A stretch of DNA of 64,000 bases from a virus. Its lineage: Duplodnaviria > Caudoviricetes. Position 1 is the stretch's first letter. Every line of letters begins with the position of its first letter. Of the stretch, positions 14,826-54,543 are shown piece by piece. The stretch lies in IMG/VR virus record IMGVR_UViG_2831870349_000001, one strand, 5' to 3'. A program made the translations under genes and the position numbers. A model generated the notes under the pieces. That model was not told the origin of the DNA, did no database searches, and saw only the letters and a list, made by a program, of their open reading frames with translations.

Positions 14826-14845
14826 ATTATTGATCGATCAATATT
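14826..14845. promoter_or_regulatory. Dispersed palindrome copy 1 (ATTATTGATCGATCAATATT)
   Basis: Intergenic; matches four other copies. Confidence 0.75.
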
Positions 14846-15121
14846 TCAGCGCTTCTGCATCGCCTTATTCATGGCGTCGATATCTTTTTGATTGTTCCGT
14901 TCCATCGTTTGCTGATTGAGCGGCGCCCCTGGGCCTGAAATTGCCTGTTGCATCAGAAGCACAGCATCTTTGAGTGTTGGACGGTGCATGTGCGGCCCGA
15001 GAATGGCCGACGCGATCAGGCCCGTCGCCCAGGTCGCAATCTTGCGCTTGGACCAGCGTTCGCCGCGCTTCAGGAGCCGCGCGGCCCAGCGTTCAATAAA
15101 ATCTGGATTGATCATATTCAT
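14846..15121 (-). CDS. Small hypothetical membrane-associated protein
   Basis: ATG overlaps the upstream stop; one hydrophobic segment. Confidence 0.5.
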   Translation of the reverse strand: MNMINPDFIERWAARLLKRGERWSKRKIATWATGLIASAILGPHMHRPTLKDAVLLMQQAISGPGAPLNQQTMERNNQKDIDAMNKAMQKR

Positions 15122-15837
15122 TACCTGGGTGAAACGTAGCCGCCTTCGAATAACAATGGGCCTCGGCAGTGAGCGCATGTCATTTCGCGGCGATCCTCGT
15201 TAGCGATCAGGACGATCGAACCATTGCAGATCGGGCATAAACCGATATGCATATTTCGCCAGCGATATCTCTCCCCAGCTAACTCCTTCTCGTCGAGAGA
15301 GCCAACCCGGCCGAGGAGCGGCTTCCCTATGCCCTCATAGATCGCCCACAAAAAGGCGCCGCAGAGCGGGATCCCGAGTATCGACCAGATGCCTCCAACG
15401 TAAACAAGGAAGGGTCCAATAAGTCCTGCCCACCAGAATATCCAGATTGGGACGATGGTGAAACCTCCGGATCTTTCCTTCGTCGCTTCCCGAATCGAAC
15501 GTGTCGCCTGCTCGTCAATCTGCTGAGGTGTGGCCTGGTTGAACTTTACGGCTCCCGGACGCCACGCGCTAACAGTCTTCTCAAGGGGGTCTGCTGGCGA
15601 GACAAGAAGCGCGGTCGGTGCGTGAACGACAATGAGTGGAGAACCCGTGAGGGGCGCGTTACATTGCTTGCAAATCTCAGTTCCGGCATCGTTCAGCAGT
15701 CCGCAGGTTGAGCAATGGTTATCCTGTGGGGTAACGGCTGGCGCAGCGGCCTTGGCCGCCGGCTTCCCATATTTCTGACACCGCGCGCAGTCGAGATCGA
15801 ACGCCGTCATGATATAGCCGCAGTCGGGACATTCCAT
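15121..15837 (-). CDS. Zinc-ribbon membrane protein
   Basis: Multiple CxxC pairs and two TM helices; GAGG RBS; typical of the immunity region. Confidence 0.7.
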   Translation of the reverse strand: MECPDCGYIMTAFDLDCARCQKYGKPAAKAAAPAVTPQDNHCSTCGLLNDAGTEICKQCNAPLTGSPLIVVHAPTALLVSPADPLEKTVSAWRPGAVKFNQATPQQIDEQATRSIREATKERSGGFTIVPIWIFWWAGLIGPFLVYVGGIWSILGIPLCGAFLWAIYEGIGKPLLGRVGSLDEKELAGERYRWRNMHIGLCPICNGSIVLIANEDRREMTCAHCRGPLLFEGGYVSPR

Positions 15838-15854
15838 ACGGTCGACCTCTGATA

Positions 15855-16253
15855 TTACCTCACTGCAAGCTTGCATAGGATGTGGCGAATTTGGGCCGCG
15901 TCAAGCCCTGGCTGAAGCGGAAGATGATCTCCCCATAATCCATGATCACATTCGTAATCCAGGCAGGCGCCCGCCCAGAGCAAATGGTGGGCGATCTCGT
16001 GCCGGATACCGTGAGCGATGGTGGTCGGCGCGTAGTGAAAGTTAATCACGATGCATCCACGATCAGTAGGAGTGTAAAAAGCAGCCCCATATCTAGGATT
16101 TCTGTCTGCGACCATTTCGATCCCAAGCCCACGCGCCACTCTGATGCCTGACATGACTTCGTCGGCGACATAGCCGTCATACAACATTTCGAGCTTCCGA
16201 TGCAGGTTCTTCCCGATACAATCCAGGTCAATCCCGTATACATCCATGTGCAA
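15855..16253 (-). CDS. ImmA/IrrE-family metallopeptidase (anti-repressor protease)
   Basis: HEIAH zinc motif; directly downstream of the repressor. Confidence 0.75.
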   Translation of the reverse strand: MHMDVYGIDLDCIGKNLHRKLEMLYDGYVADEVMSGIRVARGLGIEMVADRNPRYGAAFYTPTDRGCIVINFHYAPTTIAHGIRHEIAHHLLWAGACLDYECDHGLWGDHLPLQPGLDAAQIRHILCKLAVR

Positions 16254-16256
16254 CGC

Positions 16257-16709
16257 TTACTCACCCTCCGTACCGTCCTCAAAGTCATCATCGAATTTTG
16301 AGCGGTGTCCGATTGCCGTATCTGAATCGCTTTCCAAGATTGCCCTGAGGACATTCTTCGCCAGCGGAATTTTGTCTTGGCGTCCACTAAGCTGTTCGAA
16401 GAGATGATCGAGTTCAGCGTCACGCTTTCGGGTAATTATTCGCTGTTCAACTTTAAAGCCAGCAGCATCTAAACCGGAAGCTATAAGGGCCTGAACAAAA
16501 TCTACATCTGAGCCGGGCGGGGCCAGCGCCCTAGCGAGTTTTTCGACAACTTTTTTTGAAGGCGCCCGAGCGCCTCGTTCCAGGGCAGATGCGTAGCCTT
16601 GGGTGATATTAGCCATATCGGCCAAATCATCTTGGGATAACTTTTCAGGGTATTGGCGACGCTGCTCGGCCAACCATAGGCTGAACGTGCTTGCGTTTTC
16701 CTTGCTCAT
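16257..16709 (-). CDS. XRE-family prophage repressor
   Basis: LSQDDLADMANITQGYASALERG HTH; divergent from the early operon. Confidence 0.88.
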   Translation of the reverse strand: MSKENASTFSLWLAEQRRQYPEKLSQDDLADMANITQGYASALERGARAPSKKVVEKLARALAPPGSDVDFVQALIASGLDAAGFKVEQRIITRKRDAELDHLFEQLSGRQDKIPLAKNVLRAILESDSDTAIGHRSKFDDDFEDGTEGE

Positions 16710-16771
16710 AAAGTCAATCTCAATTTCTAAACAGGCTATCATTTTGTCTCCTAATGGAGATAGACACAGTA

Positions 16772-16848
16772 TAAAACAATTTGTTGCAAAAATAAAGCGA
16801 CAAATTGTTTTAAAACATATTGCTATCCCCAATACAATATGTTATAAT
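16772..16848 (+). promoter_or_regulatory. Switch region: operators and rightward promoter
   Basis: AACAATTTGT/ACAAATTGTT palindromes; TTGCTA(16820)-17nt-TATAAT(16843), ATG 6 nt after the -10. Confidence 0.75.
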
Positions 16849-16854
16849 CCCTCC

Positions 16855-17112
16855 ATGCCTAAGCAATTAGAAGTCTATTCGGAATTGCGAAAGCTCCGCG
16901 ACGCCATGAATAACGGCAAGGGGTGCAGCGCACAAGAATTTGCCAACATGGTGGCCGCCATCCTTGGAGAGAAGGAGCGCAGCGGCGGATCCATCATCGC
17001 GATCGAGAACCGTGGCGTAAAAGATTATTACGTGATCCGTGCCCTCGCGTCGATCCATGGGATGACGAATGAGGAGATGGCAGAATTGGTGAACCCTGAC
17101 AAAATTAAATAA
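16855..17112 (+). CDS. Cro-like HTH regulator, probably leaderless
   Basis: First gene divergent from the repressor; SAQEFANMVA...SIIAIENRG HTH-like. Confidence 0.7.
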   Translation: MPKQLEVYSELRKLRDAMNNGKGCSAQEFANMVAAILGEKERSGGSIIAIENRGVKDYYVIRALASIHGMTNEEMAELVNPDKIK

Positions 17113-17159
17113 CAAATTGTTCTAAAAATCTTGCTATTTTTAGAACAATTTGTTATAAT
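17110..17159 (+). promoter_or_regulatory. Second early promoter within a 20-bp inverted repeat (two operators)
   Basis: TAACAAATTGTTCTAAAAAT...ATTTTTAGAACAATTTGTTA; TTGCTA(17131)-17nt-TATAAT(17154). Confidence 0.8.
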
Positions 17160-17193
17160 ATCCTCAGTCCACTCTACTGAGGAGCAAAAAAAG

Positions 17194-17574
17194 ATGTCCG
17201 CCGCCGCATATTTCCGCAATCTGGTCGAGGTGAATAACGAAGTTGCCGCCTTTGAGCGCCGAACCCGGGAGATCGAAGCCTCGCACCGCGCGCAGCTCCT
17301 CAGCGAGCAGGTGGCGGCAATCCAGAGCGACTACGAAATCACGGTCTCGGACGATCACATGCTGCTGACGCACATGATGGAGCAGGACGACTTCGCGAAG
17401 GTCTTCCGGGTTCCCGGCACAACCGACGTGGACCGCGACCGAACCCAGGTCGGTCACCGCACCCCGTTCCTGGCGCGCGCCTTCGAAGTCGTGATCGAGC
17501 AGCGGATCGAGGCGAATCGCCGGGAGCGCCTGGCGGCTCAGAAAATGAACGCCAGCCGAAAGGCGGCGGCGTAA
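17194..17574 (+). CDS. Hypothetical early phage protein
   Basis: GAGGAG RBS; coupled to the next gene. Confidence 0.7.
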   Translation: MSAAAYFRNLVEVNNEVAAFERRTREIEASHRAQLLSEQVAAIQSDYEITVSDDHMLLTHMMEQDDFAKVFRVPGTTDVDRDRTQVGHRTPFLARAFEVVIEQRIEANRRERLAAQKMNASRKAAA

Positions 17575-17888
17575 TGGGAACGGCTGCTCAGGCGCTTGGC
17601 GTGATGGTCCCGGCGGGCGTCACGGAGTTTGACGCGGACCTCGATCTGCTCGCGATCCTCATCTTCCATGGGGCGTTGACGCAAGACGAGGCGATGGAGG
17701 AGCGGGAGGCGCTGTCGCTTCGCATGAACGCCTACTTCGCCGATCAGATGAACGCCTACTTCGCCGATCAGATGAACGCCGACGGCGGCGAGTGCGATCT
17801 GGTTCTTCGGTTCTCGTCGGGACATTGCGGTACGGACGAGGAAGCCGCTGCTGAACCATTCTTTTGTGAACTGCCGCTCGCGGCTTAA
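17574..17888 (+). CDS. Hypothetical protein with in-frame 24-bp duplication
   Basis: TAATG coupling; MNAYFADQ repeated twice. Confidence 0.6.
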   Translation: MGTAAQALGVMVPAGVTEFDADLDLLAILIFHGALTQDEAMEEREALSLRMNAYFADQMNAYFADQMNADGGECDLVLRFSSGHCGTDEEAAAEPFFCELPLAA

Positions 17889-17939
17889 TTGATTTTGTAA
17901 TTATCTTCTGATTGATTTTGAGAGTGTGGGGAGACGTCA

Positions 17940-18161
17940 ATGAAGCAGCCTTTGCGGGTTACATTGTCAACGGCGGACGGGCGGGTGATCATGGAGAGTT
18001 CCGCTCCGGGCGAGCGAATCATCCACGATCGCCTGGAATACCAGATCGCGCTCGCCAGGGAGCTTTTCGCGGCGCGCGGGATCCGCTTCACTGCGGAAGA
18101 CCGCGCCATCATGACACGAAATCACGAGCAGAGGATGCAGGCGGCGGCGAAGGCCGCATAG
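17940..18161 (+). CDS. Hypothetical protein
   Basis: GGAG RBS; phage-like codon usage. Confidence 0.6.
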   Translation: MKQPLRVTLSTADGRVIMESSAPGERIIHDRLEYQIALARELFAARGIRFTAEDRAIMTRNHEQRMQAAAKAA

Positions 18162-18218
18162 CGCGAGTGGAGACGAAGGGCGAATTGCACATTTGAGTTC
18201 GCAGTTTGGGAGGGTTTG

Positions 18219-18452
18219 ATGGCAAAGCAAGCGACGACCGGGCAGTCTCTGACCCGTCAGGAGCGGAACATGCTTCGGATGGCGGCGACAGGCCTGATCA
18301 ACAGAGAAATCGCCAGCCGCGAGGGCGTCTCCAAGCGAACGGTGGACTTTCACCTCTACAACACTTACGAGAAGCTGGGCGTTTCGAACCGGATCCAGGC
18401 GATCAATATTGCGCGCAGCCGTGGGCTGCTGGAGATCTCAGCAGCGGCGTAG
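18219..18452 (+). CDS. Stand-alone LuxR/GerE-type HTH regulator
   Basis: LTRQE...GLINREIA...VSKRTVDFHLYNTYEKLGVSNR. Confidence 0.9.
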   Translation: MAKQATTGQSLTRQERNMLRMAATGLINREIASREGVSKRTVDFHLYNTYEKLGVSNRIQAINIARSRGLLEISAAA

Positions 18453-18570
18453 GGTTGGTTTTAGGATTGGTTAGAGGATTAGTTAGAGGATTAGTTACGG
18501 GCCCGACAAAACAAAACGACCCGGTCAAGCGCTGTGGCAACAGCTCCCGGGTCGTAAGGATCATACGAAA

Positions 18571-19401
18571 ATGACTATACCCCAAAATTCCAATTGCAAT
18601 ACAAATACTGTCCAAAAACCGGTATTTGACCCCAATAAGCACCTGATCGCGGTTCAGGGCGGCCGGAAATATCTTCCCGTGTCCGCCCGCGTCCAGTGGT
18701 TCCGATCCGAGCATCCGGACTGGACAATCGAGACCAACCCGCTCACCATCGACAACGACAAGCAGTTCGCCATCTTCCAGGCGAAGATCTTCAACGCCGA
18801 CGGCCGCCTGATGGCGATGGGCACGAAGAAGGAAGACATCAAGGGCTTCGGCGACTATATCGAGAAGGCCGAGACCGGAAGCGTCGGCCGCGCACTGGCG
18901 CTTTGCGGCTACGGTACGCAGTTCGCACCCGAGCTTGACGAAGTCGCCGGCGGCCGCTTCGCTGACACTCCACAAGGGAGCCGGCATGGCGACGCTGCCC
19001 AGGCGGGACGCTACGGCGACTCGTCGCGCGGCGGACAGGGCCGTGGACAGCGCTCAGGTCATCCCGCCGCACGCCCCGCTTCGGAGTTTACGCGACAGGA
19101 TGAGCAGCCAGAGAGCAGCGAGACCACCGAGGCTCCTGCCGTGAGCACGTCCTGCGCCTCCTGCGACCGAACGCTCAGCAAATCCCAGGCGGACTTCTCC
19201 AAACACAATTACGGCGACGCGCTTTGCCCGGCCTGCCAGCGCGAACGCGGCGCGGCCGAGTCGCCCTCGCCGGCCGCCACGTTTGCGACGCGCCCCGCGC
19301 AATCCTCGACACGTCCCGCGCAATCCTCGACGCGACCACAGGACCGCGAGTTTGAGAGCCAGCGCCGCGAGCGCCTGGAGCGGGAAGGGGGCCGCGCGTG
19401 A
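18571..19401 (+). CDS. Putative single-strand annealing recombinase (Rad52/Erf-like) with C-terminal Zn finger
   Basis: KYLPVSARVQWFR and EKAETGSVGRALALCGYG motifs; CASC...CPAC. Confidence 0.65.
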   Translation: MTIPQNSNCNTNTVQKPVFDPNKHLIAVQGGRKYLPVSARVQWFRSEHPDWTIETNPLTIDNDKQFAIFQAKIFNADGRLMAMGTKKEDIKGFGDYIEKAETGSVGRALALCGYGTQFAPELDEVAGGRFADTPQGSRHGDAAQAGRYGDSSRGGQGRGQRSGHPAARPASEFTRQDEQPESSETTEAPAVSTSCASCDRTLSKSQADFSKHNYGDALCPACQRERGAAESPSPAATFATRPAQSSTRPAQSSTRPQDREFESQRRERLEREGGRA

Positions 19402-20314: not shown

Positions 20315-22798
20315 ATGCTTGCTGAAATCGATACTAAAATTCAGACAGTCGGTCAACTCGCGCCAAGAGAGGCCGGCGAAGGCGAGGATCTGAAGATCTC
20401 CGACAAACTGCGCGTTCTGGCGAACGGGATGCAGGCGGCCATCGATGTCAAGCTTGCCCCTCGCCTTGCCAACACACCCAAGCGTATCCGTGAGGCGGAG
20501 GATGCCGAGCGCGACGCGAAGCGGATGCAGCGCGTCCAGGCATCACTGCAATATCTGGCGGATGCCCACGACGCTGGCACGGTTCCTCTGGTCGTCTCCC
20601 GAATCAAGACGAAGTCGGTCATCGAAAACATTCTCTTCAATACGAAGTTCCCGGACTGGATCGGATCCAGCAGCGAGCAGGGGCGACTACTCGCTGCTGG
20701 CATCGCGACCGCAGCGGATTTTGATGAAGCGAAGAAGATTCTGGAGGCCGCCGCCGAGGACGCCGGCGGGGAATCGAAAGAAGCACTGAAGTTGCGCAAG
20801 CTGATGCGCGGGCTGGTCGGCGTCAACATCCCCGGCTACTTCCCGACGCCGGACGGATTGGTGACGCGCCTTTTGGAGCTTGCCGAGATCGAAGCGGGAA
20901 TGAGGACGTGCGAGCCCCAGGCAGGCAGCGGCCATATCGCCGACCGGATCCGCGCCGAACATCCCGACGTCCCGCTCACGGTGATTGAGATCAACCTTCA
21001 GCTTCGCGAGATCTTATCGGCCAAAGGTTATCCGATTGCGGGGTCCGATTTCCTCGAATGGCGCTCGGAAGAGCTCTTCGATCGATTTGTCTGCAATCCA
21101 CCGTTCGAGCGCGGCGTCGATATCGATCATGTCCGTCACGCGTATGAGTTGCTGGCGCCGGGCGGGCGCCTTGTATCCGTGATGTCCGACGGCGCGTTCT
21201 TTCGGTCCGATAAGAAGGCATCGCTCTTCCAGCAGTGGTTCCGGGTCAATGACGGCGAGGCGTTCGAAGTTCCCCACGGCTCCTTCCTGGAGAGCGATAA
21301 GAAGACGGCCGTCAGCACGAAGATCATCGTTCTGAATAAGCCGGCGGCTCCTGTCTTGACACTGGTCACATCCGTGGGAGAAGCGCGCATCGAAAATAAT
21401 TCGTCAGGCTCTGAGAATTATTCATCGATCAATAATGCTGTCGGCCCTGACACGCAAGATATTCCGCTTGAGAATCTCCTTCCCAATCCTTTTCAGCCGC
21501 GTGACATATTCGCTCAAAAACCGCTGGAGGACCTGGCGCGCAGCCTGACCATAAACAAGCAACTCCAGCCGATTGTCGTCCGCCATGCCGCAAAAGACGC
21601 CGGCAAGTTCGAGATCGCCTGCGGCGAGCGGCGCTTCCGCGCGGCGAAGATCGCGGGACTTGCTTCATTGCGCGCTGAAGTCGCTGTCTACGATGATTTG
21701 CAGATGGCGCGTATCGCGACGGCCGAAAACGATGAGCGTGAGCCTCTCAATCCCCTGGAGCGCGCTCGTGGATATGCGAACCGCGTGAAACTCGGTCAGA
21801 CACAGGCGGAAATTGAGGCGGAGACTGGCGTCGATCAATCTTCCATCAGTCAAACGCTGAACTTACTCACGCTTCCTGAAAGTGTCCAGGATCATCTTCG
21901 CCACGGGCGCATCTCCGCCACGCACGGTTTCAAATTGCTGAAGCTGCGTAAGCTACAGGGGACCGAAGCGTCGATGATCAAGTTCGCTGGAGACGCTTTC
22001 GCCGCGTCCTGGTCCGTCAGCAAATTGGATCAGGTAATTACCGATCATATCGCCGACCTTCAGCGCTCGGCCGCGTCTCCCTACTTCAATGTGGTGGCGC
22101 CAACAATTTCGGCCACCGTCTTCTCTGAGCCGGGACCGATCCCCGCCGCCGAAGTCGAAGCGCCTCCGGCGCCGGCAATGTCAGAACGATCCCCAAATAG
22201 CAACGAGGAGGAAATTGATGGCAGTCATGAGATGGTCGCACAGGACGTATTTTCGTCCGGAGATCCCGTGCCGGTGGTGGCCGCTGCTGGAGCGACTGAG
22301 CATGCAGCGCACGAAGACGCGCCAGCTTCATCATCTGCGGACGACGCGCCTTGCGAAGTACGATCATCTGCACCACATGACACAGTGGACGCACAGGCAG
22401 CCTCAGTACCGGAGGCCGCTACACCGACCGGGCCGGTCGAGGTGCTGATCGGAGAGGATATCCCCTCGATTTGCCACCATTGTCCGCTCAGCGCGGCGAC
22501 GATGGTGAACATTCGTGACGGCGTTCGAGCATCGATGCAGGGGGCGCAGGCTGCCGATCAGACCGATGACCGCACCGTGACACTCTCAAAGGACAGCACG
22601 GACGCGCTCTGGGAAATGGGTCTGACGGCGGATCAGGCAATTGCGGAGCTGCTCGAATACCGCCTTGTCCCAAAGGCCAAGAATGCGCTTCGCATGCTTA
22701 CGGACGCCTATAACGAAAACCATGCTGAAAATATCAATCTGTCCGAGCGCCTGAGCTCCATCGTGCTGACACGCGCCACACAGTCGGAGGGCTTCTAA
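20315..22798 (+). CDS. N6-adenine DNA methyltransferase fused to ParB/Spo0J CTPase-HTH
   Basis: YFPTP, EPQAGSG (SAM binding), NPPF (catalytic), LAPGGRLV; then PNPFQPR, LQPIVVR, GERRFRA, AENDERE and an HTH. Confidence 0.9.
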   Translation: MLAEIDTKIQTVGQLAPREAGEGEDLKISDKLRVLANGMQAAIDVKLAPRLANTPKRIREAEDAERDAKRMQRVQASLQYLADAHDAGTVPLVVSRIKTKSVIENILFNTKFPDWIGSSSEQGRLLAAGIATAADFDEAKKILEAAAEDAGGESKEALKLRKLMRGLVGVNIPGYFPTPDGLVTRLLELAEIEAGMRTCEPQAGSGHIADRIRAEHPDVPLTVIEINLQLREILSAKGYPIAGSDFLEWRSEELFDRFVCNPPFERGVDIDHVRHAYELLAPGGRLVSVMSDGAFFRSDKKASLFQQWFRVNDGEAFEVPHGSFLESDKKTAVSTKIIVLNKPAAPVLTLVTSVGEARIENNSSGSENYSSINNAVGPDTQDIPLENLLPNPFQPRDIFAQKPLEDLARSLTINKQLQPIVVRHAAKDAGKFEIACGERRFRAAKIAGLASLRAEVAVYDDLQMARIATAENDEREPLNPLERARGYANRVKLGQTQAEIEAETGVDQSSISQTLNLLTLPESVQDHLRHGRISATHGFKLLKLRKLQGTEASMIKFAGDAFAASWSVSKLDQVITDHIADLQRSAASPYFNVVAPTISATVFSEPGPIPAAEVEAPPAPAMSERSPNSNEEEIDGSHEMVAQDVFSSGDPVPVVAAAGATEHAAHEDAPASSSADDAPCEVRSSAPHDTVDAQAASVPEAATPTGPVEVLIGEDIPSICHHCPLSAATMVNIRDGVRASMQGAQAADQTDDRTVTLSKDSTDALWEMGLTADQAIAELLEYRLVPKAKNALRMLTDAYNENHAENINLSERLSSIVLTRATQSEGF
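21417..21436. promoter_or_regulatory. Dispersed palindrome copy 2 (ATTATTCATCGATCAATAAT), in the MTase-ParB linker
   Basis: AT-rich island within a GC-rich CDS; encodes NYSSINN. Confidence 0.75.
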
Positions 22799-22802: not shown

Positions 22803-24677
22803 ATGACTCCTAAGAAGCCATTTGTTTGCGTGGATCTCTTTTGCGGGGCCGGCGGGATCAGTCAAGGTCTGCGCAATGCCGCCAAGAAGGTTGGCTATAC
22901 GGCGGCGCTTCTCGCGATCAACCACTGGCCAGTCGCGATCGATTCGCATACGCTCAATCATCCAGAGGCCACACATATTTGCGCTCCGGTGGACGGCGCC
23001 AATCCTCGCGAGCTTGTCCCAGGCGGGATTGTCCATCTTCTTTGCGCGGCGCCGGAATGCACCCATCACTCCAATGCGCGCGGGGGTAAGCCCAAGAGCG
23101 AACAAAAGCGATCAAGCGCCTGGGACATCCTTCGATGGGCAGACGCGCTGTATGTTCACCACATCTTGATTGAGAACGTGCCGGAATTCCAGAAATGGGG
23201 GCCGCTTCATCCCTGCACTTGTGGGGTGGAGGAAGGCGCTGAGCACCTGAAATCCTGCTTGATCGGGAAGCCGATCAAAGAAGAGGAAGGCCGCTTCTTC
23301 CGAAACTTTATCCGCAACTTGGAGGAGCTTGGCTATACCGTCGAATTCAAGGTGCTTACCTGCTGCGAATATGGCGATCCAACCAGCCGCAAACGCCTGT
23401 TCATCCAGGCCCGGCTCGGCGGTATCGCGCCTGCCTGGCCGGAAATTACGCACGTTCCCGCCGCTGAAGTCGCGTCGCGTCCAGGGAAGAAGGCTCAGCT
23501 TGTCGCCCGTGACATCATCGACTGGAAACTGAAGGGCACATCGATCTACGATCGGCCGGCTCAGGGCAAAAAAAACCTCGTTGCCGCGACGATGAAGCGC
23601 ATCCACGCCGGTGTTTACAAATTCGCGGGATTGCCATTCCTTGTTCCGAATTTCGGGGAGCGAGAAGGGCAGCAGCCGCGTACGCACTCGATTTATTCGC
23701 CATTGTCCGCCGTCACCAGCCACGGCGCCGGAGCGATCTGCCAGCCGTTTCTCGTCGTGCTCCAGAACCATCGTGATGGTTACAGCCTGGAGAAACCGTT
23801 CCCAACGATCATGACGCGCCGGCAGTTCGGTGTCGCCGAGCCCTACATCGCGCCGATCACGCACACGGGATCCGGGAATCGATGCCGGGGCGTGGATAAG
23901 CCGCTCTTCACCGTTACTGGAGCCAAACGTGGGGAACTGGCGTTACTGGAGCCCTATATGGTGGTCAATCGCAAGAATGCGGACGCACATCCGATGGATG
24001 TTCCCATGCGCGCGCTGACGACCGGTAACATCATGGGAGTTGCGGAGCCTCAGATCGTAACCGACTCGGTTAACGCCTTCCTCGTGAAATATTACGAAGG
24101 AAGTGACGCCGCCTCGCTCGACGCCCCGCTGCCAGCGGTCACCTCGAATTATGAACATCTGGCGCTGATCGAAACTGTTCCTGAATGGAACGAGACGATG
24201 CCGGCGTTCATGACGAAATATCATGGCTCGCACCAGGGGCGAAACGACGGTGATGGGCGCGTACTTTCGGTTGGCTCGCCGCTCCCTGCTCTCGACACTT
24301 CGAATTGCCTGGGTATCGCTGAGCCTAATCTTGTAATCCGACAACATACGCCATTCCTGATCAATTATAACGGGACCGGCGGCGCGCATTCGGTGGACGA
24401 GCCGCTGCTCTCCGCGACGGGGAACGACCGGTTCGCCCTGGTGGCGCCCGAATATCATCACTTGATCGACAAAGGCGACGTCGTCGGCTACCTCGACATT
24501 CTTTACCGGATGCTCCAGCCGCACGAGCTCGCTGGCGGCCAGGGATTTCCGAAGTCGTATATTTTCACCGGGACGCGCGAGGCGCAAATCAAGCAGATTG
24601 GCAATGCGGTTCCTGTTGCGACCGCAGAGGCGCTTTGCACAACGATCTTCAAGACGTTGATGGCGGTGGCTGTATGA
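22803..24677 (+). CDS. DNA cytosine-C5 methyltransferase (long phage type)
   Basis: DLFCGAGG, PECTHHS catalytic motif, ENV, RKRLF, QGFP, QIGNAV; repeated xxPLxTxT units in the variable region. Confidence 0.93.
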   Translation: MTPKKPFVCVDLFCGAGGISQGLRNAAKKVGYTAALLAINHWPVAIDSHTLNHPEATHICAPVDGANPRELVPGGIVHLLCAAPECTHHSNARGGKPKSEQKRSSAWDILRWADALYVHHILIENVPEFQKWGPLHPCTCGVEEGAEHLKSCLIGKPIKEEEGRFFRNFIRNLEELGYTVEFKVLTCCEYGDPTSRKRLFIQARLGGIAPAWPEITHVPAAEVASRPGKKAQLVARDIIDWKLKGTSIYDRPAQGKKNLVAATMKRIHAGVYKFAGLPFLVPNFGEREGQQPRTHSIYSPLSAVTSHGAGAICQPFLVVLQNHRDGYSLEKPFPTIMTRRQFGVAEPYIAPITHTGSGNRCRGVDKPLFTVTGAKRGELALLEPYMVVNRKNADAHPMDVPMRALTTGNIMGVAEPQIVTDSVNAFLVKYYEGSDAASLDAPLPAVTSNYEHLALIETVPEWNETMPAFMTKYHGSHQGRNDGDGRVLSVGSPLPALDTSNCLGIAEPNLVIRQHTPFLINYNGTGGAHSVDEPLLSATGNDRFALVAPEYHHLIDKGDVVGYLDILYRMLQPHELAGGQGFPKSYIFTGTREAQIKQIGNAVPVATAEALCTTIFKTLMAVAV

Positions 24678-25564
24678 AATCAGATCTCATGAACGCAGAC
24701 GCCAAATGCCGACGCCCTGTCCTGAGATATCACGGTGGGAAATGGCGTCTTGCGTCGTGGATCATCAGCCAAATGCCGCCTCATCGCGTTTACGTCGAGC
24801 CGTATTGCGGAGCCGCGTCCGTCCTTCTCCAGAAGCCGCGCGCCTTCGGCGAGGTGATCAACGATCTGGACGGGGAGGTCGTCAATCTGTTCCGCGTGCT
24901 GCGCGAACCGGCGGCCGCGAAGGATCTGATCAATGCGATCCGCCTGACGCCGTTCGCGCGCGCCGAATTCGACACCGCTTACGATCGCAATATCCTGGAT
25001 CCCGTGGAGCGCGCTCGCCGCCTGATGGTCCGGTCTTTCATGGGTTTTTCGTCCAGTGCGTCGGGCAAGGGTAGCAAAACAGGATTTCGATCCTATGCCT
25101 ACCGCTCCTACATGACGCCGGCGGCGGACTGGGCGGGATTGCCGGCCGCGCTGCCAGCCGTGGTGCAGCGGCTGCGCGGCGTGACGATCGAGAACCGGAG
25201 TGCGATTGAACTCGTTCAATCGCACTCCACTCCCGAGACGCTGCTTTATTGCGATCCTCCCTATGTGCGCAGCACCAGGTCTTCGCTACGCTGGCCAGGG
25301 GAGAAAGCGTACGCGCATGAGATGACCGATGACGATCACCGAACCATGGCGGCGGCCCTGAGCTCGAGCGCGGCAATGGTGATCGTGAGCGGATATCGAT
25401 GCGACCTTTACGATGAGATCTTCAACAACTGGATCCGATGTGACCGCGCCGGCGTGATCGCGAGCAATACCGGAAGCGCAACGCGCATGGAATCTCTGTG
25501 GCTTAATCCTGCTGCGGCCCAGGCCCGTGGTCAGCAATCTTTAGAGCTCGAGGTGAGAGCGTGA
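24674..25564 (+). CDS. Dam-like (D12 class) DNA adenine methyltransferase
   Basis: RYHGGK, EPYCGAAS, NDLD, DPPY. Confidence 0.92.
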   Translation: MKSDLMNADAKCRRPVLRYHGGKWRLASWIISQMPPHRVYVEPYCGAASVLLQKPRAFGEVINDLDGEVVNLFRVLREPAAAKDLINAIRLTPFARAEFDTAYDRNILDPVERARRLMVRSFMGFSSSASGKGSKTGFRSYAYRSYMTPAADWAGLPAALPAVVQRLRGVTIENRSAIELVQSHSTPETLLYCDPPYVRSTRSSLRWPGEKAYAHEMTDDDHRTMAAALSSSAAMVIVSGYRCDLYDEIFNNWIRCDRAGVIASNTGSATRMESLWLNPAAAQARGQQSLELEVRA

Positions 25565-27655: not shown

Positions 27656-28081
27656 ATGTCAAAGGCAGTCATCAATATCGGATATTTCTGCGCGAACCTA
27701 CATTCAGTCGTGAATGCTCATCTCAACGGCTTCAGCGCGCAGCTTCTGGCGGAAAGCTATGGGGACCAGATTGAGCGGTTTCCGGAGGGCGGAATCGCCT
27801 TCACGTGTGAGGATCATTCGCATCGAGCCATTTACGTGACGATCAGTACGGAAGCCCCGGTGAGTTTGGAAAGCGACGAGCAAGTCGACCGGCATGCGCG
27901 CTGGCTTGCAGATGAGTATTATCGCCGCCGAATCCCACTCAACGACAATGAGCCAACGGGTTTTGATGATTGCGGACCCATGCTGCAGTGGAGCTATCGC
28001 AACCGAGCCCGCCTGTTCCTGGGCGTCCCAGAGGTGCGATGGGAGGAGGCGCTAGAGAATTCCCGGAGGCGGTCGCCATGA
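27656..28081 (+). CDS. Hypothetical protein
   Basis: Coupled operon gene. Confidence 0.55.
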   Translation: MSKAVINIGYFCANLHSVVNAHLNGFSAQLLAESYGDQIERFPEGGIAFTCEDHSHRAIYVTISTEAPVSLESDEQVDRHARWLADEYYRRRIPLNDNEPTGFDDCGPMLQWSYRNRARLFLGVPEVRWEEALENSRRRSP

Positions 28082-28554
28082 CGCCTACGGTCTACACGAT
28101 GGGCTACGAGGGACGCAAGCCGGCGGACCTATTGATGATCGCGGAGCGCCTGGACGCGACGATTGTGGACATCCGGTACCGCGCCTGGAGCGCGCATCCG
28201 CAATGGCGGCATGGAGCCCTTCGCGAGTTTCTCGGCGATCGTTATGCGCGCTGCGTGCAGCTTGGCAATAAGCGCTACCGGGAGCCCGCGAACGCGGACG
28301 GAAGCCGCCAGATCGAATTGGTCGACGCCGCCGCCGGAGCGCAGTATGTCCTTGAGCATCCGCATTCCGTGATTTTGATGTGTGGGTGCCGGAACGCGGA
28401 GACATGCCACCGATCCAACGTTGCGCGATTATTGATCGATCAATACGATCAGCGAGTTTTTGAAATCATGTGGGCGCGCGGGGCTAACGCCTCTGGGATT
28501 CTCTGGGCGGCTTACGACTGGGCGGAAGTCGATTCGTGGGCGGGAAAGGATTGA
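28078..28554 (+). CDS. DUF488-family protein
   Basis: VYTMGYEGR, VDIR, LGN, LMC...CHR. Confidence 0.8.
   Translation: MTPTVYTMGYEGRKPADLLMIAERLDATIVDIRYRAWSAHPQWRHGALREFLGDRYARCVQLGNKRYREPANADGSRQIELVDAAAGAQYVLEHPHSVILMCGCRNAETCHRSNVARLLIDQYDQRVFEIMWARGANASGILWAAYDWAEVDSWAGKD
28428..28447. promoter_or_regulatory. Dispersed palindrome copy 3 (ATTATTGATCGATCAATACG), inside the DUF488 CDS
   Basis: 18 of 20 positions match the consensus. Confidence 0.7.
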
Positions 28555-41291: not shown

Positions 41292-41311
41292 ATTATTGAT
41301 CGATCAATAAT
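41292..41311. promoter_or_regulatory. Dispersed palindrome copy 4 (perfect ATTATTGATCGATCAATAAT)
   Basis: Perfect 20-bp palindrome just after the tRNA cluster. Confidence 0.8.
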
Positions 41312-52178: not shown

Positions 52179-52213
52179 GCGAAAGCCAAAAAATAGGCTT
52201 CGGCCAAACCATA

Positions 52214-52277
52214 GCCCTGCGAGCGCTCCCGACGCTCGCAGGGTGAAATTGTATCGGGGGCGTCTCGGGAGGGCGTC
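52214..52277 (+). ncRNA. Candidate kissing-loop cis-regulatory RNA, copy B
   Basis: 12-bp hairpin with loop CTCCCGA, complementary to loop TCGGGAG; covaries with copy A. Confidence 0.65.
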
Positions 52278-52282
52278 AGCAG

Positions 52283-53029
52283 ATGGCATTAACAGAGCAA
52301 GAAGTCGCGGAGATCAATTCTCTGCTCGCTGAGTCGGGCAAGAGAGCCGCGCGCAAGATTTTCCTGGAAGTGGAAGCGAAGAGACTCCTCGAGGAATCGA
52401 TGGCGGCCAACGAAGAACTAAACAATCTGCGTTTTGACTATTGTCCCGCACAGCAGCGGATTAATGAAATTCTTCGCGACGCTTCAATTCGTGAATCTGC
52501 GTGCCCAGGCGAAGTTCCGGGGCGTGTTGTAGAAAACGCCATCGCATGTGGGGACGACAACCAGGCGCTTGCTGAAGACGAACGCCCGCTGAATCGCTAT
52601 GCAGTGGATTATGAGTTTGGGGCAGCAAAGTTCTACACACGATCTATCGACATAGACGAAGCGCGGCTCGAATTTTATGACTGCGCCAACGAATGCTTCG
52701 GTATTCGTAAGTCGATTGGAGACGTAAAAATCAACCTTGAGGCGGAGAACGTCCACCTGCCTGTCCAGGATGCGAAACAGATCTCCTATTTCACTCACGC
52801 ACTTCTATACGGCCAAACTTCAGGTATCGGAGACGAAGTCATTTTCGACCGGCGTTATAAGACGGCAAGCGGTGAGGGGTGGAAACTTCAAAACGAGAGC
52901 GGAGAGCGTTGCACCTGCGCGACGCGTGGCAGCGCCGAACTTGCCTGCGAAGTGCATCACTTCTGGGTTGAAAATCATAACCACGTCTGCCCATGCACCA
53001 ATCCGTCGTGGGAGGCGCCGCACAAATGA
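52283..53029 (+). CDS. Hypothetical moron protein
   Basis: 248-aa ORF with Cys/His-rich C-terminus. Confidence 0.6.
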   Translation: MALTEQEVAEINSLLAESGKRAARKIFLEVEAKRLLEESMAANEELNNLRFDYCPAQQRINEILRDASIRESACPGEVPGRVVENAIACGDDNQALAEDERPLNRYAVDYEFGAAKFYTRSIDIDEARLEFYDCANECFGIRKSIGDVKINLEAENVHLPVQDAKQISYFTHALLYGQTSGIGDEVIFDRRYKTASGEGWKLQNESGERCTCATRGSAELACEVHHFWVENHNHVCPCTNPSWEAPHK

Positions 53030-54543
53030 ATCCTCAAAACCTCCTTTTGAATCTAGGCTCTGGGGATCTTCCACTTCGCGGCCACATCAATATCGACCGC
53101 AAATACGAAAAGGATGTCCTTCACGTGGACGAAGACACCATTCTCTGGCGCGGCGAAGTCTACCCACTGGCTTTCGATGATGAAAGCGTCTGCGGCGTGC
53201 GCGCCTCACACGTGTTGGAGCATTTCAGCCATCGCGAGACGATGGCGGTCCTGGCCGACTGGGTTCGCGTCTTGAAGCCGGGCGGGCTTCTCTGTGTCGC
53301 CGTCCCGAACTTCGAATGGATCGCAAGGCGCTACCTCGAATCCCTCACCAATTCCGCCGCCGCCGCGCTTCCGCTGGAAGGGTATCTGATGGGCGGGCAT
53401 GTGGATGATAATGATCACCACGGCGCCATTTTTGATGAGCAGAGCCTGCGCGCGGCAATGGAGCATCTGGGACTGGTCAACATCTACACATGGGATTCCG
53501 AAGTCGCGGACTGCGCCTCGCTTCCCGTTTCGCTGAACCTGGTGGGGATGAAACCTCTTCCGGCGGATTATTCATCGATCAATAATCCTGCTCCTGGACG
53601 AATAGAGAACCCACACGGGTTTGCTGTGGGCGATCAAGTTTGGGACAATTCCGGCGACTGTGGAAACGGCTTTGGCGATGTCTTGGAGATCTACGAAAAG
53701 CACCCCAATTGCGTCAAAGTGTATTGGGAGAATGAAGGCAATCTTTGTGTGGTCCATTGCTCAATTCTAGATCATGTCGCTGATGTTAAGACAGTTCCAC
53801 AGGACAGCGTGAAAGCATCATCAGGTCCGGATTTGCGCTTTGCCTCCATCGTCATCAAGCCCGGCGACGTCGCGGCCGTGGCTACCGTACCGCGCCTTGG
53901 CTTCACGGACACGCAGTTCTGCATTATCCGCGCCGTCTGCGCCCATCCGATCAGCTTCGAGCAGAGCGGCGGCGTATTCTGGGACCAGGGGATGACACGC
54001 GTCTTCGAAAGCCATATGGACGACGGGACGAAGTATCTCCTGGCGATCGATTATGATTCGCTTTTCACCGCTGAGGATGTGCGGACGCTGTATGGCGTCA
54101 TGGAAGCGCGGCCCGACATTGACGCGCTTTGCCCGGTCCAGATCCGGCGCGAGAACGATCATTCGCTCTTTACCGTGGAAGGCGACGACGGCAAGAGCGC
54201 AACCGAGATCGATTATTCACGTTTCGAGACGGACGTTCTGAAGATCCGAACCGGCCATTTTGGCCTGACGATGATCCGCGTGGACGCGCTGCGCCGCCTG
54301 CCGCGTCCCTGGTTCCATGCCCGGCCCGACGACGCCGGCCGCTGGGGCGACGGGCGCGTGGACAGCGACGTCGCCTTCTGGCTCCAGTGGGCCGAGGCGG
54401 GCAACTCGCTGTACCTGGCGAACCGTGTCCCGATCGGTCACCTCCAGCTCATGGCAACCTGGCCGAGTGAGGAACTTGGTTTGAAGACTCAGTATGTCAG
54501 TGACTGGCTGAAGACAGGGAAGCCGGCGGGCGCGTGGCAATGA
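53026..54543 (+). CDS. Class I SAM methyltransferase - GT-A glycosyltransferase fusion
   Basis: LNLGSG, NID, SHVLEH, RVLKPGG; C-terminal IDYD (DxD), GHFGLTMIR, DSDVAFW, IGH. Confidence 0.8.
   Translation: MNPQNLLLNLGSGDLPLRGHINIDRKYEKDVLHVDEDTILWRGEVYPLAFDDESVCGVRASHVLEHFSHRETMAVLADWVRVLKPGGLLCVAVPNFEWIARRYLESLTNSAAAALPLEGYLMGGHVDDNDHHGAIFDEQSLRAAMEHLGLVNIYTWDSEVADCASLPVSLNLVGMKPLPADYSSINNPAPGRIENPHGFAVGDQVWDNSGDCGNGFGDVLEIYEKHPNCVKVYWENEGNLCVVHCSILDHVADVKTVPQDSVKASSGPDLRFASIVIKPGDVAAVATVPRLGFTDTQFCIIRAVCAHPISFEQSGGVFWDQGMTRVFESHMDDGTKYLLAIDYDSLFTAEDVRTLYGVMEARPDIDALCPVQIRRENDHSLFTVEGDDGKSATEIDYSRFETDVLKIRTGHFGLTMIRVDALRRLPRPWFHARPDDAGRWGDGRVDSDVAFWLQWAEAGNSLYLANRVPIGHLQLMATWPSEELGLKTQYVSDWLKTGKPAGAWQ
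53567..53586. promoter_or_regulatory. Dispersed palindrome copy 5 (ATTATTCATCGATCAATAAT), in the MTase-GT linker
   Basis: Identical to copy 2; encodes DYSSINN. Confidence 0.75.

What the first reader, a model, noticed from the sequence alone, without database searches (positions are those of the whole stretch)
14826..53586. Methyltransferase-ParB fusion with five dispersed parS/operator-like palindromes: candidate sliding-clamp DNA-modification system
Seen: the 20-bp palindrome ATTATT(G/C)ATCGATCAATAAT occurs at 14826, 21417, 28428, 41292 (perfect) and 53567, all in the prophage. I found none by eye in the first 11 kb. It is about 80% AT in GC-rich DNA. Three copies sit inside CDSs, and two force the same peptide YSSINN into linkers of unrelated proteins, implying selection at the DNA level. 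One copy lies just upstream of the ParB domain of 20315-22798, an N6-adenine MTase (NPPF) fused to a full ParB (GERRFRA CTPase motif plus HTH). No ParA is visible in the window. Known: ParB CTPases load at palindromic parS sites and slide for kilobases; RK2 KorB and N15 SopB use dispersed palindromes, some intragenic. Inference: the clamp loads at these sites, 6.6-12.9 kb apart, and carries the MTase along phage DNA to mark or protect it in cis, or silences promoters at long range (copies 1 and 4 lie upstream of the moron operon and the late genes). The GATCGATC/ATCGAT core could make loading methylation-sensitive.
Basis: partly seen in the sequence, partly recalled or inferred. Interest (0 to 1): 0.9.

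Follow-up and report, generated by a model that had tools for sequence, protein, structure and literature searches.

The report
Prophage palindromes, candidate ParB-methyltransferase docking sites
A 100-kb prophage of a Capsulimonas soil bacterium carries seven copies of a 20-base palindrome that is almost absent from the rest of the genome, and these are most likely docking sites for the phage's own ParB-type DNA clamp fused to a DNA methyltransferase, though binding has not been shown.

Summary
All five palindromes are at the stated coordinates, with none expected by chance. Two more perfect copies lie beyond the window end. Seven of the nine strong sites in the 7.6-Mb genome fall in one ~100-kb inserted element.

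A same-genus relative (G002) carries a diverged copy of the element, with proteins about 35-85% identical. It keeps six copies of the motif, all on that contig. Four or five sit at syntenic places, one in the same linker of the fusion gene.

The fusion is a TRD-less HsdM/M.TaqI-like N6-adenine methyltransferase joined to a Spo0J/Noc-like ParB with intact CTP-binding motifs.

Binding of ParB to the palindrome is inferred, not shown. The XRE, LuxR-like and 73-aa candidate readers were not found in G002, which argues for ParB. Against it, a second prophage in this genome has its own dispersed palindrome and no detectable ParB.

The sliding-methyltransferase idea is untested. A methylation-sensitive GATC core is not supported.

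This scan reported the same pattern before on other DNA. I class it as a new variant of a known kind, interest moderate to high.

The parts
14826..14845 (.). Palindrome copy 1 (ATTATTGATCGATCAATATT, 1 mismatch). It abuts the stop codon of the 110-aa gene 14846-15178(-) and lies 43 bp upstream of the start of ORF 13677-14783(-).
   Evidence: Prophage 2 carries its own palindrome at the 3' end of the homologous gene.
21417..21436 (.). Palindrome copy 2 (perfect to the pattern). It lies inside the fusion gene, in the linker between the methyltransferase and ParB modules, and encodes YSSINN.
   Evidence: A degenerate copy sits at the same linker place in G002 (C112 31429), and YSSIN is conserved within an otherwise diverged linker.
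28428..28447 (.). Palindrome copy 3 (2 mismatches at the distal end), inside the 3' part of gene 27970-28554(+).
   Evidence: No counterpart was found at this place in G002.
41292..41311 (.). Palindrome copy 4 (perfect palindrome). It lies 3 nt after tRNA-Thr and 65 bp upstream of 41376-41960(+), at the head of the late region.
   Evidence: The syntenic copy in G002 is at C112 13057.
53567..53586 (.). Palindrome copy 5, inside 52993-54543(+). It is in the same phase as copy 2 and encodes YSSINN.
   Evidence: G002 has a copy (C112 2766) about 30 bp upstream of the homologue of 54895-55770.
20315..22798 (+). Methyltransferase-ParB fusion gene. It encodes 827 aa from M16 of the 842-aa ORF that starts at 20270.
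   Evidence: Full-length relatives number only 2 of 57 hits in the word-indexed search. In the exhaustive HMMER scan, 2 of the 150 listed proteins match end to end in one stretch.
20387..21349 (+). Methyltransferase module (aa 40-360): an N-terminal helical domain plus a Rossmann catalytic domain. Motif I is EPQAGSGHI and motif IV is NPPF. No target-recognition domain is present.
   Evidence: AF2 model with mean pLDDT 86. Top Foldseek matches are type I HsdM subunits and M.TaqI (rmsd 3.7 A over about 195 columns, 21-23% identity).
21455..22042 (+). ParB N-terminal (CTPase-fold) domain plus ParB HTH domain (aa 396-591), with GERRFRAAK, NPFQPR and ENDERE.
   Evidence: Pfam. PDB sequence hits: Spo0J 7.6e-28, Noc 3.5e-26, KorB 3.8e-9. 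AF2 block-mean pLDDT is mostly above 90 for aa 395-544.
22577..22795 (+). Conserved C-terminal domain (aa about 770-842), a candidate dimerisation domain that follows a long disordered, poorly conserved linker.
   Evidence: Conserved with G002. The AF2 model here is low-confidence and helical. The Atlas search gave no usable match.
22803..24677 (+). C5-cytosine DNA methyltransferase, immediately downstream of the fusion gene.
   Evidence: Pfam DNA_methylase, E 4e-31. It is 72% identical in G002.
24635..25564 (+). D12-class (Dam-like) N6-adenine methyltransferase.
   Evidence: Pfam MethyltransfD12, E 3e-19. Only a weak partial match exists in G002 (34% over 92 aa).
11385..12962 (-). Large serine recombinase at the left end of the element. 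attL lies at about 11286-11384, inside the capsid gene of a resident prophage.
   Evidence: Pfam Resolvase plus Recombinase. The capsid N-part is 10849-11373. Its C-part resumes at window-equivalent 111051-111542.

Best explanation
The 20-bp palindromes are the cognate, parS-like docking sites of the ParB module of the element's own methyltransferase-ParB protein.

Shown:
- The sites are specific to the element and conserved at the DNA level.
- The protein has a complete Spo0J/Noc-type nucleotide-binding domain and HTH.
- Its N-terminal module is an HsdM/M.TaqI-like N6-adenine DNA methyltransferase with no target-recognition domain of its own.

Inferred:
- Dimers load at the seven sites, close into a CTP-gated clamp and escape sideways along the DNA. 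KorB and BisD do this on other ~60-100-kb mobile elements.
- The clamp thereby carries the otherwise unaddressed methyltransferase along the element's DNA, giving cis-preferential adenine methylation for self-marking or anti-restriction.
- Because several sites lie 30-65 bp upstream of start codons, the same clamp may also modulate transcription.

It is not a ParABS partition system in this genome, because the element is integrated and has no ParA.
For: 1. Specificity. Seven of 9 strong sites in 7.645 Mb lie in the ~100-kb element, and none is expected by chance.
2. Co-occurrence. Among three Capsulimonas genomes, the two with the fusion carry motif clusters: G000 has 7, and G002 has 6 of 6 on contig C112. 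G001 has neither, but is only 69% complete.
3. Synteny. Four site positions are syntenic between G000 and G002, and a fifth is approximately so. The sites stand as conserved islands in diverged flanks.
4. A site lies inside the fusion gene, just 5' of the ParB-coding part, in both elements. It fixes YSSIN in an otherwise diverged linker.
5. Other candidate readers were not found in G002: XRE 16257-16832, the LuxR-like protein 18216-18452, the 73-aa protein 17940-18161 and the 110-aa protein.
6. The ParB module is closest to Spo0J/ParB/Noc, with boxes NPFQPR, GERRFRAAK and ENxxRE kept, and is confidently modelled.
7. My own comparison with recalled consensus sequences: the central 16 bp, TATTGATC|GATCAATA, shares the TnTT...AAnA arms and length of parS and the Noc-binding site.
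8. The methyltransferase has no TRD, so it needs an address.
9. Precedents. BisD is a ParB-like CTP clamp with a fused effector domain that loads at intragenic palindromes and spreads about 50 kb on an ICE (PMC12409273, abstract and section 20 read). KorB is a further precedent (PMC11790492, search listing with the start of its abstract). P1 DarB is a methylase-translocase that protects DNA in cis (PMC5512222, passages).
Against: - No binding, CTP or methylation data exist.
- Prophage 2 of the same genome (about 35-72 kb) has its own dispersed palindrome, tATTCCGCGCGGAATa, in 7 copies and no detectable ParB. One of its copies sits at the 3' end of the homologue of the 110-aa gene, just as copy 1 does here. 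Dispersed palindromes in these phages therefore do not require a ParB.
- The one perfect off-element site (genome 69149) lies in that ParB-less prophage, 47 bp upstream of a gene 83% identical to the element's 73-aa gene.
- C-terminal dimerisation, which a clamp needs, is not established.
- A survey found that some ParB-fold/SAM-methyltransferase fusions bind ATP rather than CTP (10.1101/2025.10.10.680097, passages).
- Two records with ParB and a related methyltransferase as neighbouring genes gave no comparable palindrome. The Streptomyces plasmid has none. L188 has only an oriented repeat.
Confidence: 0.45

Rival explanations
1. The palindromes are dispersed operators of another element-encoded regulator, not ParB. 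The reader would be a dimeric repressor or activator among the conserved proteins of unknown function. It would control promoters across the prophage, in the manner of the stoperators of cluster A mycobacteriophages or repeated repressor sites in other prophages (both recalled, not searched).
For: - Five sites lie 30-65 bp upstream of a start codon: 14826 (43 bp), 41292 (65), 87094 (53), genome 69149 (47) and G002 2766 (about 30).
- Prophage 2 has an analogous seven-copy palindrome and no ParB, with one copy at a syntenic place.
- The off-element site sits upstream of a gene shared with the element.
- L188 also shows a dispersed repeat that looks promoter-associated.
Against: - The recognisable regulators (XRE, LuxR-like) and the 73-aa protein were not found in G002, which keeps the motif.
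- Pfam found no other DNA-binding domain in the 40 window proteins scanned. Many proteins remain unannotated, however.
- Three sites are intragenic and far from starts.
- The site inside the ParB fusion gene is conserved.
Confidence: 0.3
2. ParB does bind the sites, but its main role is segregation, condensation or plasmid-state maintenance, with dispersed centromeres of the N15 SopB type. On this view the methyltransferase fusion is incidental, and the sites in the integrated G000 copy are a legacy of an episomal ancestor.
For: - The G002 element is circularly permuted relative to G000 and its 84-kb contig carries no host flank.
- In place of the serine-recombinase module, it carries a ParA (AAA_31 7.7e-55, with an N-terminal HTH).
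- N15 uses four separate IR centromere sites (PMC7205306, passages).
- P0001 and P0003 share a short conserved N-terminal peptide ahead of a variable acidic linker. This could be a ParA-contact peptide, which is my speculation.
Against: - In G002 the gene after parA encodes a protein whose C-terminus I read by eye as ribbon-helix-helix. That protein is the more likely ParA partner.
- P0001 has no [LIVF]G[KR]G[LIVF] ParA-contact motif.
- G000's element is integrated and has no ParA, yet its sites are more perfect than those of G002.
Confidence: 0.15
3. The palindromes are read by a host factor, or have a structural or recombination role unrelated to any element protein. The host factor could be one of the two chromosomal ParB paralogues or a nucleoid protein.
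For: - The host genome has no canonical parS with 1 mismatch or fewer, so the host ParB specificity is unknown.
- One near-copy (genome 1509212) lies 29 kb from chromosomal parAB.
Against: - Only 2 of 9 sites lie outside the element, and none clusters at the origin.
- The exact motif occurs as singletons only in 596 Gb of genomes, apart from the Capsulimonas contig.
- G001 of the same genus has no copy.
Confidence: 0.07

Closest known systems
BisD-bisS of ICEclc (Pseudomonas), PMC12409273
   Same: BisD is a ParB-like CTP clamp with an extra fused effector domain, encoded on a ~100-kb integrated mobile element. It loads at palindromic sites that lie inside genes and spreads over tens of kb. It has no partition role.
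   Different: The effector there is a transcription-activation domain, and there are two sites 2 kb apart. Here the effector is an N-terminal DNA methyltransferase, and there are seven sites 6.6-33.5 kb apart. Nothing is shown experimentally here.
KorB-OB of plasmid RK2 (PMC11790492; search listing with the start of its abstract only)
   Same: KorB is a ParB-family CTPase. It has many dispersed palindromic sites on one mobile element, some near promoters and some far from them (site layout recalled), and acts at long range by sliding.
   Different: KorB has a ParA partner (IncC) and a clamp-locking partner (KorA), and no enzymatic fusion. The sequence match of P0001 to KorB is weak (3.8e-9) compared with Spo0J/Noc (about 1e-27).
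Chromosomal ParB-parS and Noc-NBS
   Same: These give the best sequence and fold match for the ParB module. They use a 16-bp palindrome with TnTT...AAnA arms (consensus sequences recalled).
   Different: Here there is no ParA-contact motif, no ParA, and no membrane-targeting helix was examined. The core of the site differs (GATC|GATC). The N-terminus is replaced by a methyltransferase.
Phage ParB-CTPase-fold::methyltransferase fusions (survey 10.1101/2025.10.10.680097 / PMC12704722; Bce_0392 ParB-methylase cited in PMC5512222)
   Same: A ParB fold is fused to a DNA methyltransferase in prophages. The function is unknown, with an anti-defence role suggested.
   Different: The fusions named in the survey passages I read pair the ParB fold with N6_N4 (PF01555) or Methyltransf_23 domains. 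Here the order is methyltransferase then ParB, the methyltransferase is an HsdM/M.TaqI-like module, and the ParB part is complete with its HTH. I found no cognate sites described in the passages read.
N15 SopB with four IR centromeres (PMC7205306 passages; dispersal recalled)
   Same: Several separate palindromic ParB sites lie on a temperate phage genome.
   Different: N15 is an obligate plasmid prophage with a sopAB operon. The G000 element is integrated and has no ParA.
P1 DarB methylase-helicase (PMC5512222 passages)
   Same: A DNA adenine methylase is coupled to a DNA-tracking module and protects the phage's own DNA in cis.
   Different: The tracking module there is an SF2 ATPase delivered in the virion. 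Here it would be a site-loaded ParB clamp.

Membership tests
ParB/Spo0J/Noc/KorB CTP-gated DNA clamps | ParB N-terminal nucleotide-binding domain with box II GxxRxxA, plus boxes I and III | tested here: met
   Pfam ParB_N, E 4e-19. GERRFRAAK, NPFQPR and ENDERE align with Spo0J GERRFRAAK, NPYQPR and ENLQRE.
ParB/Spo0J/Noc/KorB CTP-gated DNA clamps | Central HTH DNA-binding domain | tested here: met
   Pfam HTH_ParB, E 3e-15. The AF2 model is confident through the N-domain and the first part of the HTH region.
ParB/Spo0J/Noc/KorB CTP-gated DNA clamps | C-terminal dimerisation domain that closes the clamp | tested here: inconclusive
   A conserved ~75-aa C-terminal domain exists. It had no Pfam hit, a low-confidence model and no usable Atlas match.
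ParB/Spo0J/Noc/KorB CTP-gated DNA clamps | Specific binding to a cognate palindrome, with CTP binding and hydrolysis | not testable with these tools
   Candidate sites were identified. There is no biochemical test.
ParABS partition system | Cognate ParA ATPase and a ParA-contact peptide on ParB | tested here: not met
   No AAA_31 hit in the element. No [LIVF]G[KR]G[LIVF] motif in P0001. G002 has a ParA, but with an RHH-like neighbour.
Gamma-class N6-adenine DNA methyltransferases (HsdM / M.TaqI type) | SAM motif I followed by catalytic NPP[YF], and a Rossmann fold like HsdM/M.TaqI | tested here: met
   EPQAGSGHI and NPPF. Foldseek top hits are HsdM subunits and M.TaqI, E about 1e-10. The Pfam MTS hit is only borderline (22.4 bits against a cutoff of 23).
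Gamma-class N6-adenine DNA methyltransferases (HsdM / M.TaqI type) | Target-recognition domain or a specificity subunit | tested here: not met
   The module ends about 80 aa after NPPF. The match to M.TaqI covers only its catalytic half (about 195 columns). I saw no HsdS-like gene next to it, but I did not search for one specifically.
Stoperator-type dispersed repressor network | A prophage repressor that co-varies with the sites, and oriented asymmetric sites | tested here: not met
   The XRE repressor 16257-16832 was not found in G002, which keeps the motif. The sites are palindromic.
N15-type dispersed centromeres | Extrachromosomal prophage with a sopAB-type operon | tested here: not met
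   The G000 element is integrated by a serine recombinase into a resident prophage's capsid gene. The G002 form may be episomal.

The most novel reading that the evidence does not exclude
A site-loaded ParB clamp serves as the target-recognition device of a TRD-less DNA adenine methyltransferase. The enzyme is loaded only at element-specific palindromes and methylates as it slides. A 100-kb phage genome would thus be marked in cis while the 7.5-Mb host chromosome is spared. This would be one-dimensional, address-dependent DNA methylation, a mode of methyltransferase targeting not yet demonstrated in bacteria. The same clamp may also set the prophage's transcription domains.
Probability: 0.15. 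Interest if true: 0.85.

Novelty: new variant of a known kind. Interest (0 to 1): 0.6.

Why it matters
ParB-fold/methyltransferase fusions are common in prophages, but their DNA targets and purpose are unknown (survey 10.1101/2025.10.10.680097). The idea that ParB homologues direct modification enzymes to specific loci is described as experimentally unconfirmed (PMC13229309, passage).

This element offers a compact test case. It has a complete ParB with an HTH, a methyltransferase with no recognition domain of its own, and seven precisely defined candidate loading sites. It also has a natural comparison pair, one integrated (G000) and one probably episomal (G002), in a cultivated genus of a little-studied phylum, Armatimonadota.

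If the sites are the address, simple experiments could show whether a sliding clamp can target an enzyme along DNA. The experiments are EMSA, ChIP-seq, and a methylome measured as a function of distance from the sites.

If the sites belong to another regulator, the finding is an ordinary dispersed operator network.

Tried and rejected
Readers considered and set aside:
- XRE repressor 16257-16832, LuxR/GerE-like protein 18216-18452, 73-aa protein 17940-18161 and 110-aa protein 14846-15178. None was found in G002's contig by tblastn at E 1e-3 or better. The 73-aa protein was not found in the whole G002 assembly, which is 88% complete.

Methylation-sensitive GATC core:
- Rejected for lack of conservation in G002, and because GATC is abundant and not avoided (937 observed against 824 expected).

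Wider occurrence of the motif:
- The exact motif gave 1 singleton stretch in viral contigs.
- It gave 6 singleton stretches in genome contigs, one of them the G002 contig.
In the rows printed, all were singletons except one locus with two copies 79 bp apart. Tblastn with the element's proteins hit only 3 of 117 loci. One of these (L117) encodes a ParB relative beside canonical-looking parS words, so I judge its motif match to be chance.

Generality test:
- The Streptomyces plasmid NZ_CP134608.1 has a 1015-aa ParB next to a related methyltransferase. It shows no dispersed palindrome in the first 100,000 of its 103,521 bases.
- IMG/VR locus L188 has a 1302-aa ParB protein followed by a methyltransferase. 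It has a nine-copy oriented 16-19-mer, not a clean palindrome.
- My near-palindrome clustering is swamped by GC-rich low complexity. It did not recover the true motif as the top family even in the positive controls. The k-mer count did recover it in the element, but not in G002.

Other fusions:
- P0107/P0211 (905 aa) and P0090 (918 aa, partial ParB) were found. Their contigs could not be fetched.

C-terminal domain:
- My by-eye reading of it as ribbon-helix-helix is not supported by the low-confidence all-helical model.

Expression:
- No RNA holder was listed.

Prophage 2's reader:
- Pfam on 9 of its early ORFs gave only DUF3987 and Beta_protein, besides the XRE found earlier.

Promoter-like hexamers near the sites gave no consistent picture.

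Supplementary files of the cited papers were closed. Supplementary Table 4 of the ParB-fold survey may list tested methyltransferase fusions that I could not see.

Full report
OBSERVATION

The pattern ATTATTSATCGATSAATAAT matches five times in the window, at 14826 (1 mismatch), 21417, 28428 (2 mismatches), 41292 and 53567. Nothing is expected in dinucleotide shuffles.

The window is the minus strand of G000:C1:6388727-6452726, in a 7,645,051-bp single-contig genome with 60% G+C. Genome-wide there are nine sites with 2 or fewer mismatches:
- the five in the window;
- two perfect copies just past the window end, at window-equivalent 87094 and 97558;
- two elsewhere, at genome 69149 (perfect) and 1509212 (1 mismatch).

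The 14-bp core occurs 8 times in the genome, 7 of them in the element. A symmetrised weight matrix built from 13 sites gives a bimodal result: nine sites score 29.4 bits or more, and the next best scores 18.6. The flanks share nothing, so this is a discrete 20-bp word and not a longer repeat.

- Three copies are intragenic.
- Copies 2 and 5 are in the same phase and both encode YSSINN.
- Copy 3 lies in 27970-28554, which is the real gene by its 62% identity to the relative.

THE ELEMENT

- Left end. This carries a large serine recombinase (11385-12962).
- Insertion site. The recombinase gene sits beside the truncated N-terminal part of a capsid gene of a resident phage-like element (10849-11373, weak Phage_capsid_4 match). 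An earlier scan note pointed to this. The C-terminal part of that capsid gene resumes at window-equivalent 111051-111542. There the frame opens with STNVIYANG. SU10-type adaptor genes follow. The insert is therefore about 100.2 kb.
- Early and modification genes:
  - an XRE repressor;
  - a 73-aa gene;
  - a LuxR/GerE-like 78-aa gene (my reading);
  - the methyltransferase-ParB gene;
  - a C5 methyltransferase;
  - a D12 methyltransferase;
  - DUF1064.
- Replication and late genes:
  - a DnaC-like loader;
  - two tRNAs;
  - late genes, which I did not scan myself beyond a phage metallopeptidase; they share homology with structural regions of the other prophages.
- Right arm:
  - an anti-sigma-like HATPase;
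  - a GH5 protein;
  - an N6_N4 methyltransferase;
  - a PAPS-reductase-family protein;
  - DUF3560;
  - a HAD_SAK_2 protein;
  - a dnaE2-imuB cassette;
  - two SRAP genes;
  - a tyrosine integrase.

- No AAA_31 ParA lies in the element. The only ParA next to a parB is chromosomal, at 1.538 Mb.

THE PROTEIN

P0001 has 842 aa from the first ATG, or 827 aa from M16. Its parts are:
- a short N-terminal peptide, conserved with the G002 protein, followed by an acidic linker;
- a methyltransferase module (aa 40-360);
- a linker that holds site 2;
- ParB_N (396-487);
- HTH_ParB (491-591);
- a disordered stretch of about 170 aa;
- a conserved C-terminal domain of about 75 aa.

The methyltransferase module models well, with pLDDT 86. 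Its best structural matches are type I HsdM subunits and the catalytic half of M.TaqI. It has motif I and NPPF but no recognition domain.

The ParB part is closest by sequence to Spo0J, ParB and Noc (E about 1e-27) and far from KorB (4e-9). The nucleotide-binding boxes are kept. It is modelled with high confidence. The C-terminal domain is not.

There is no ParA-contact motif.

HOW COMMON THE FUSION IS

- The word-indexed search of 5.8 billion proteins gave 57 hits, only 2 of them full length: the protein itself and the G002 protein.
- A search with the ParB region alone gave 8 hits and no further fusion.
- The exhaustive HMMER scan of 1.84 billion representatives gave 53,818 hits at E 0.001 or better. 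Of the 150 listed, only the same two match end to end in one stretch.
- A local ParB profile run over all 210 proteins then held found two more methyltransferase-plus-ParB proteins, P0107 (905 aa) and P0090 (918 aa, partial ParB). Their contigs could not be fetched.
- Among 401 Armatimonadota genomes, 7 have the methyltransferase module. Only G000 and G002 have the fusion.

COMPARATIVE EVIDENCE

G002 is a same-genus assembly (88% complete), and its contig's record title names a Capsulimonas MAG. It holds the relative on an 84-kb contig. Proteins are 35-85% identical and collinear, but the map is circularly permuted: window 82.6-111 kb joins, through 9 kb, to window 17.1-46.4 kb. The contig has no host flank.

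The contig carries six motif copies (2766, 6693, 13057, 31429, 59520, 67631) and one weak one (52558). In the whole G002 assembly, all 6 matches of the 18-mer pattern with 1 mismatch or fewer are on this contig. The reversed-pattern control gave 0.

Four positions are syntenic with G000:
- 41292 with 13057;
- 21417 with 31429;
- 87094 with 67631;
- 97558 with 59520.

A fifth is approximately syntenic (53567 with 2766). For three of the pairs the global alignments show the site as an island of identity in poorly alignable flanks. For the 41292 pair the aligner did not register the sites, although they lie in the equivalent intergenic region. In the fusion gene the site fixes YSSIN in an otherwise diverged linker.

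G001 (69% complete) has neither the fusion nor the motif.

The arms of the motif are the conserved part. The two central bases and the S positions vary.

WHO READS THE SITE

Points in favour of ParB:
- It co-occurs with the motif.
- A site lies inside its own gene in both elements.
- The other recognisable readers were not found in G002.
- The central 16 bp have the length and the TnTT...AAnA arms of parS and the Noc site. This is my comparison with recalled consensus sequences.

Points against:
- A genome-wide palindrome census showed that other prophages here have their own dispersed palindromes.
- Prophage 2 (about 35-72 kb) has tATTCCGCGCGGAATa in 7 copies. No ParB was detected there by Pfam at E up to 10 or by a local profile.
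- One prophage-2 copy overlaps the 3' end of the homologue of the 110-aa gene whose 3' end abuts copy 1 here. The two palindromes therefore look functionally analogous.
- Prophage 3 (1.77-1.80 Mb) has GGTTTCGCGCGAAACC in 4 copies and a 220-aa ParB_N-only protein.
- The perfect off-element copy of the present motif sits in prophage 2, 47 bp upstream of a gene 83% identical to the element's 73-aa gene.

I therefore put ParB binding at roughly even odds, taking together the best explanation and the partition rival. An unidentified conserved regulator is the main alternative.

FUNCTION

In G000 the system cannot be a ParABS partition system, because the element is integrated and has no ParA.

In G002 a ParA with an N-terminal HTH replaces the recombinase module. 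It is followed by a largely disordered protein of about 245 aa, whose C-terminus I read by eye as ribbon-helix-helix. That protein is the more likely ParA partner.

The best-supported mechanism is by analogy. BisD of ICEclc is a ParB-like CTP clamp with a fused effector domain. It loads at intragenic palindromes and spreads about 50 kb (PMC12409273; abstract and section 20 read). KorB slides from dispersed sites to silence promoters (PMC11790492; search listing with the start of its abstract).

A methyltransferase with no recognition domain, fused to such a clamp, suggests cis-addressed methylation. The notion that ParB homologues direct modification enzymes is described as unconfirmed in PMC13229309 (passages). 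That paper shows a phage ParB-like activator of a thymine dioxygenase that lacks a DNA-binding domain.

Several sites lie 30-65 bp upstream of start codons. A regulatory role is therefore equally possible.

A methylation-sensitive GATC core is not supported.

NOVELTY

ParB-fold/methyltransferase fusions in prophages are surveyed in 10.1101/2025.10.10.680097 (passages read). Bce_0392 is cited in PMC5512222. I found no description of their cognate sites in the passages read. Nor did searches 36 and 68 surface one. One search (Capsulimonas plus prophage) returned one unrelated paper.

This scan's own notes report the same pattern on at least six other genomes: dispersed palindromes, a phage ParB-methyltransferase fusion, and a site inside the fusion gene. 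I treat these as leads, not as evidence. The one claim I could test, a site inside the gene, holds in both elements.

What is new in this case:
- the reversed domain order;
- a different methyltransferase class;
- the phylum;
- the pairing of an integrated form with a probably episomal one.

VERDICT

I class the finding as a new variant of a known kind, with interest 0.6.

Noticed in passing
genome 36679-71028 (outside the window; L034, L040): A second prophage carries its own dispersed palindrome, tATTCCGCGCGGAATa, in 7 copies (one with 1 mismatch) over 34 kb, and no detectable ParB. One copy overlaps the 3' end of the homologue of the element's 110-aa gene.
   Followed up: partly
genome 1768948-1795519 and 4281809-4282369 (outside the window; L041): A third prophage has four copies of GGTTTCGCGCGAAACC, which resembles parS, and a 220-aa ParB_N-only protein at 1803329-1803988(-). 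Three further copies or variants cluster within 560 bp at 4.28 Mb.
   Followed up: partly
genome 3119040-3169565 (outside the window): aacTCTGGAATATTCCAGAgtt occurs 4 times perfectly, with variants. One copy lies just upstream of a second SRAP-dnaE2-imuB cassette, so this is a candidate SOS (LexA) box for this phylum.
   Followed up: no
whole genome G000: No canonical parS (TGTTNCACGTGNAACA, 1 mismatch or fewer) occurs anywhere, although parAB lies at 1.538 Mb near the GC-skew minimum (1.59 Mb). The host parS is therefore unknown.
   Followed up: partly
G002 contig C112 41394-43068 (L019): In the relative, a ParA with an N-terminal HTH, plus a disordered protein whose C-terminus looks ribbon-helix-helix, replaces the serine-recombinase module. 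This looks like a swap of a plasmid-maintenance module for an integration module between two versions of one phage.
   Followed up: partly
window-equivalent 103312-110981 (L025): The phage carries a dnaE2 (1075 aa) and imuB-like (466 aa) mutagenesis cassette, two SRAP genes and a tyrosine integrase at its right end. The host has three further dnaE2-imuB copies, about 50% identical for dnaE2 and 32-34% for imuB.
   Followed up: partly
window 10849-11373 and window-equivalent 111051-111542: The 100-kb element is inserted in the major capsid gene of a resident SU10/N4-like prophage. The two gene halves were found at the two junctions.
   Followed up: yes
window 10636-10784: A repeat of about 150 bp has at least eight other copies in G000 (83-89% identical) and shorter matches in many relatives. 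It looks like a REP/MITE-like element.
   Followed up: no
window 17889-17939: The 50-bp spacer upstream of the 73-aa gene holds two direct ATTGATTTTG words that resemble the palindrome's half-site core.
   Followed up: no
L188 (IMG/VR contig, 71% G+C) 2284-19322: An actinobacterial phage contig has a 1302-aa ParB protein followed by a related methyltransferase. It carries nine mostly co-oriented copies of ATAGTGACTACCCACTA(AA), three of them bracketing these two genes.
   Followed up: partly
window-equivalent 89005-89658: A fourth DNA methyltransferase (N6_N4 family) lies in the element, about 1.9 kb downstream of palindrome copy 6.
   Followed up: no
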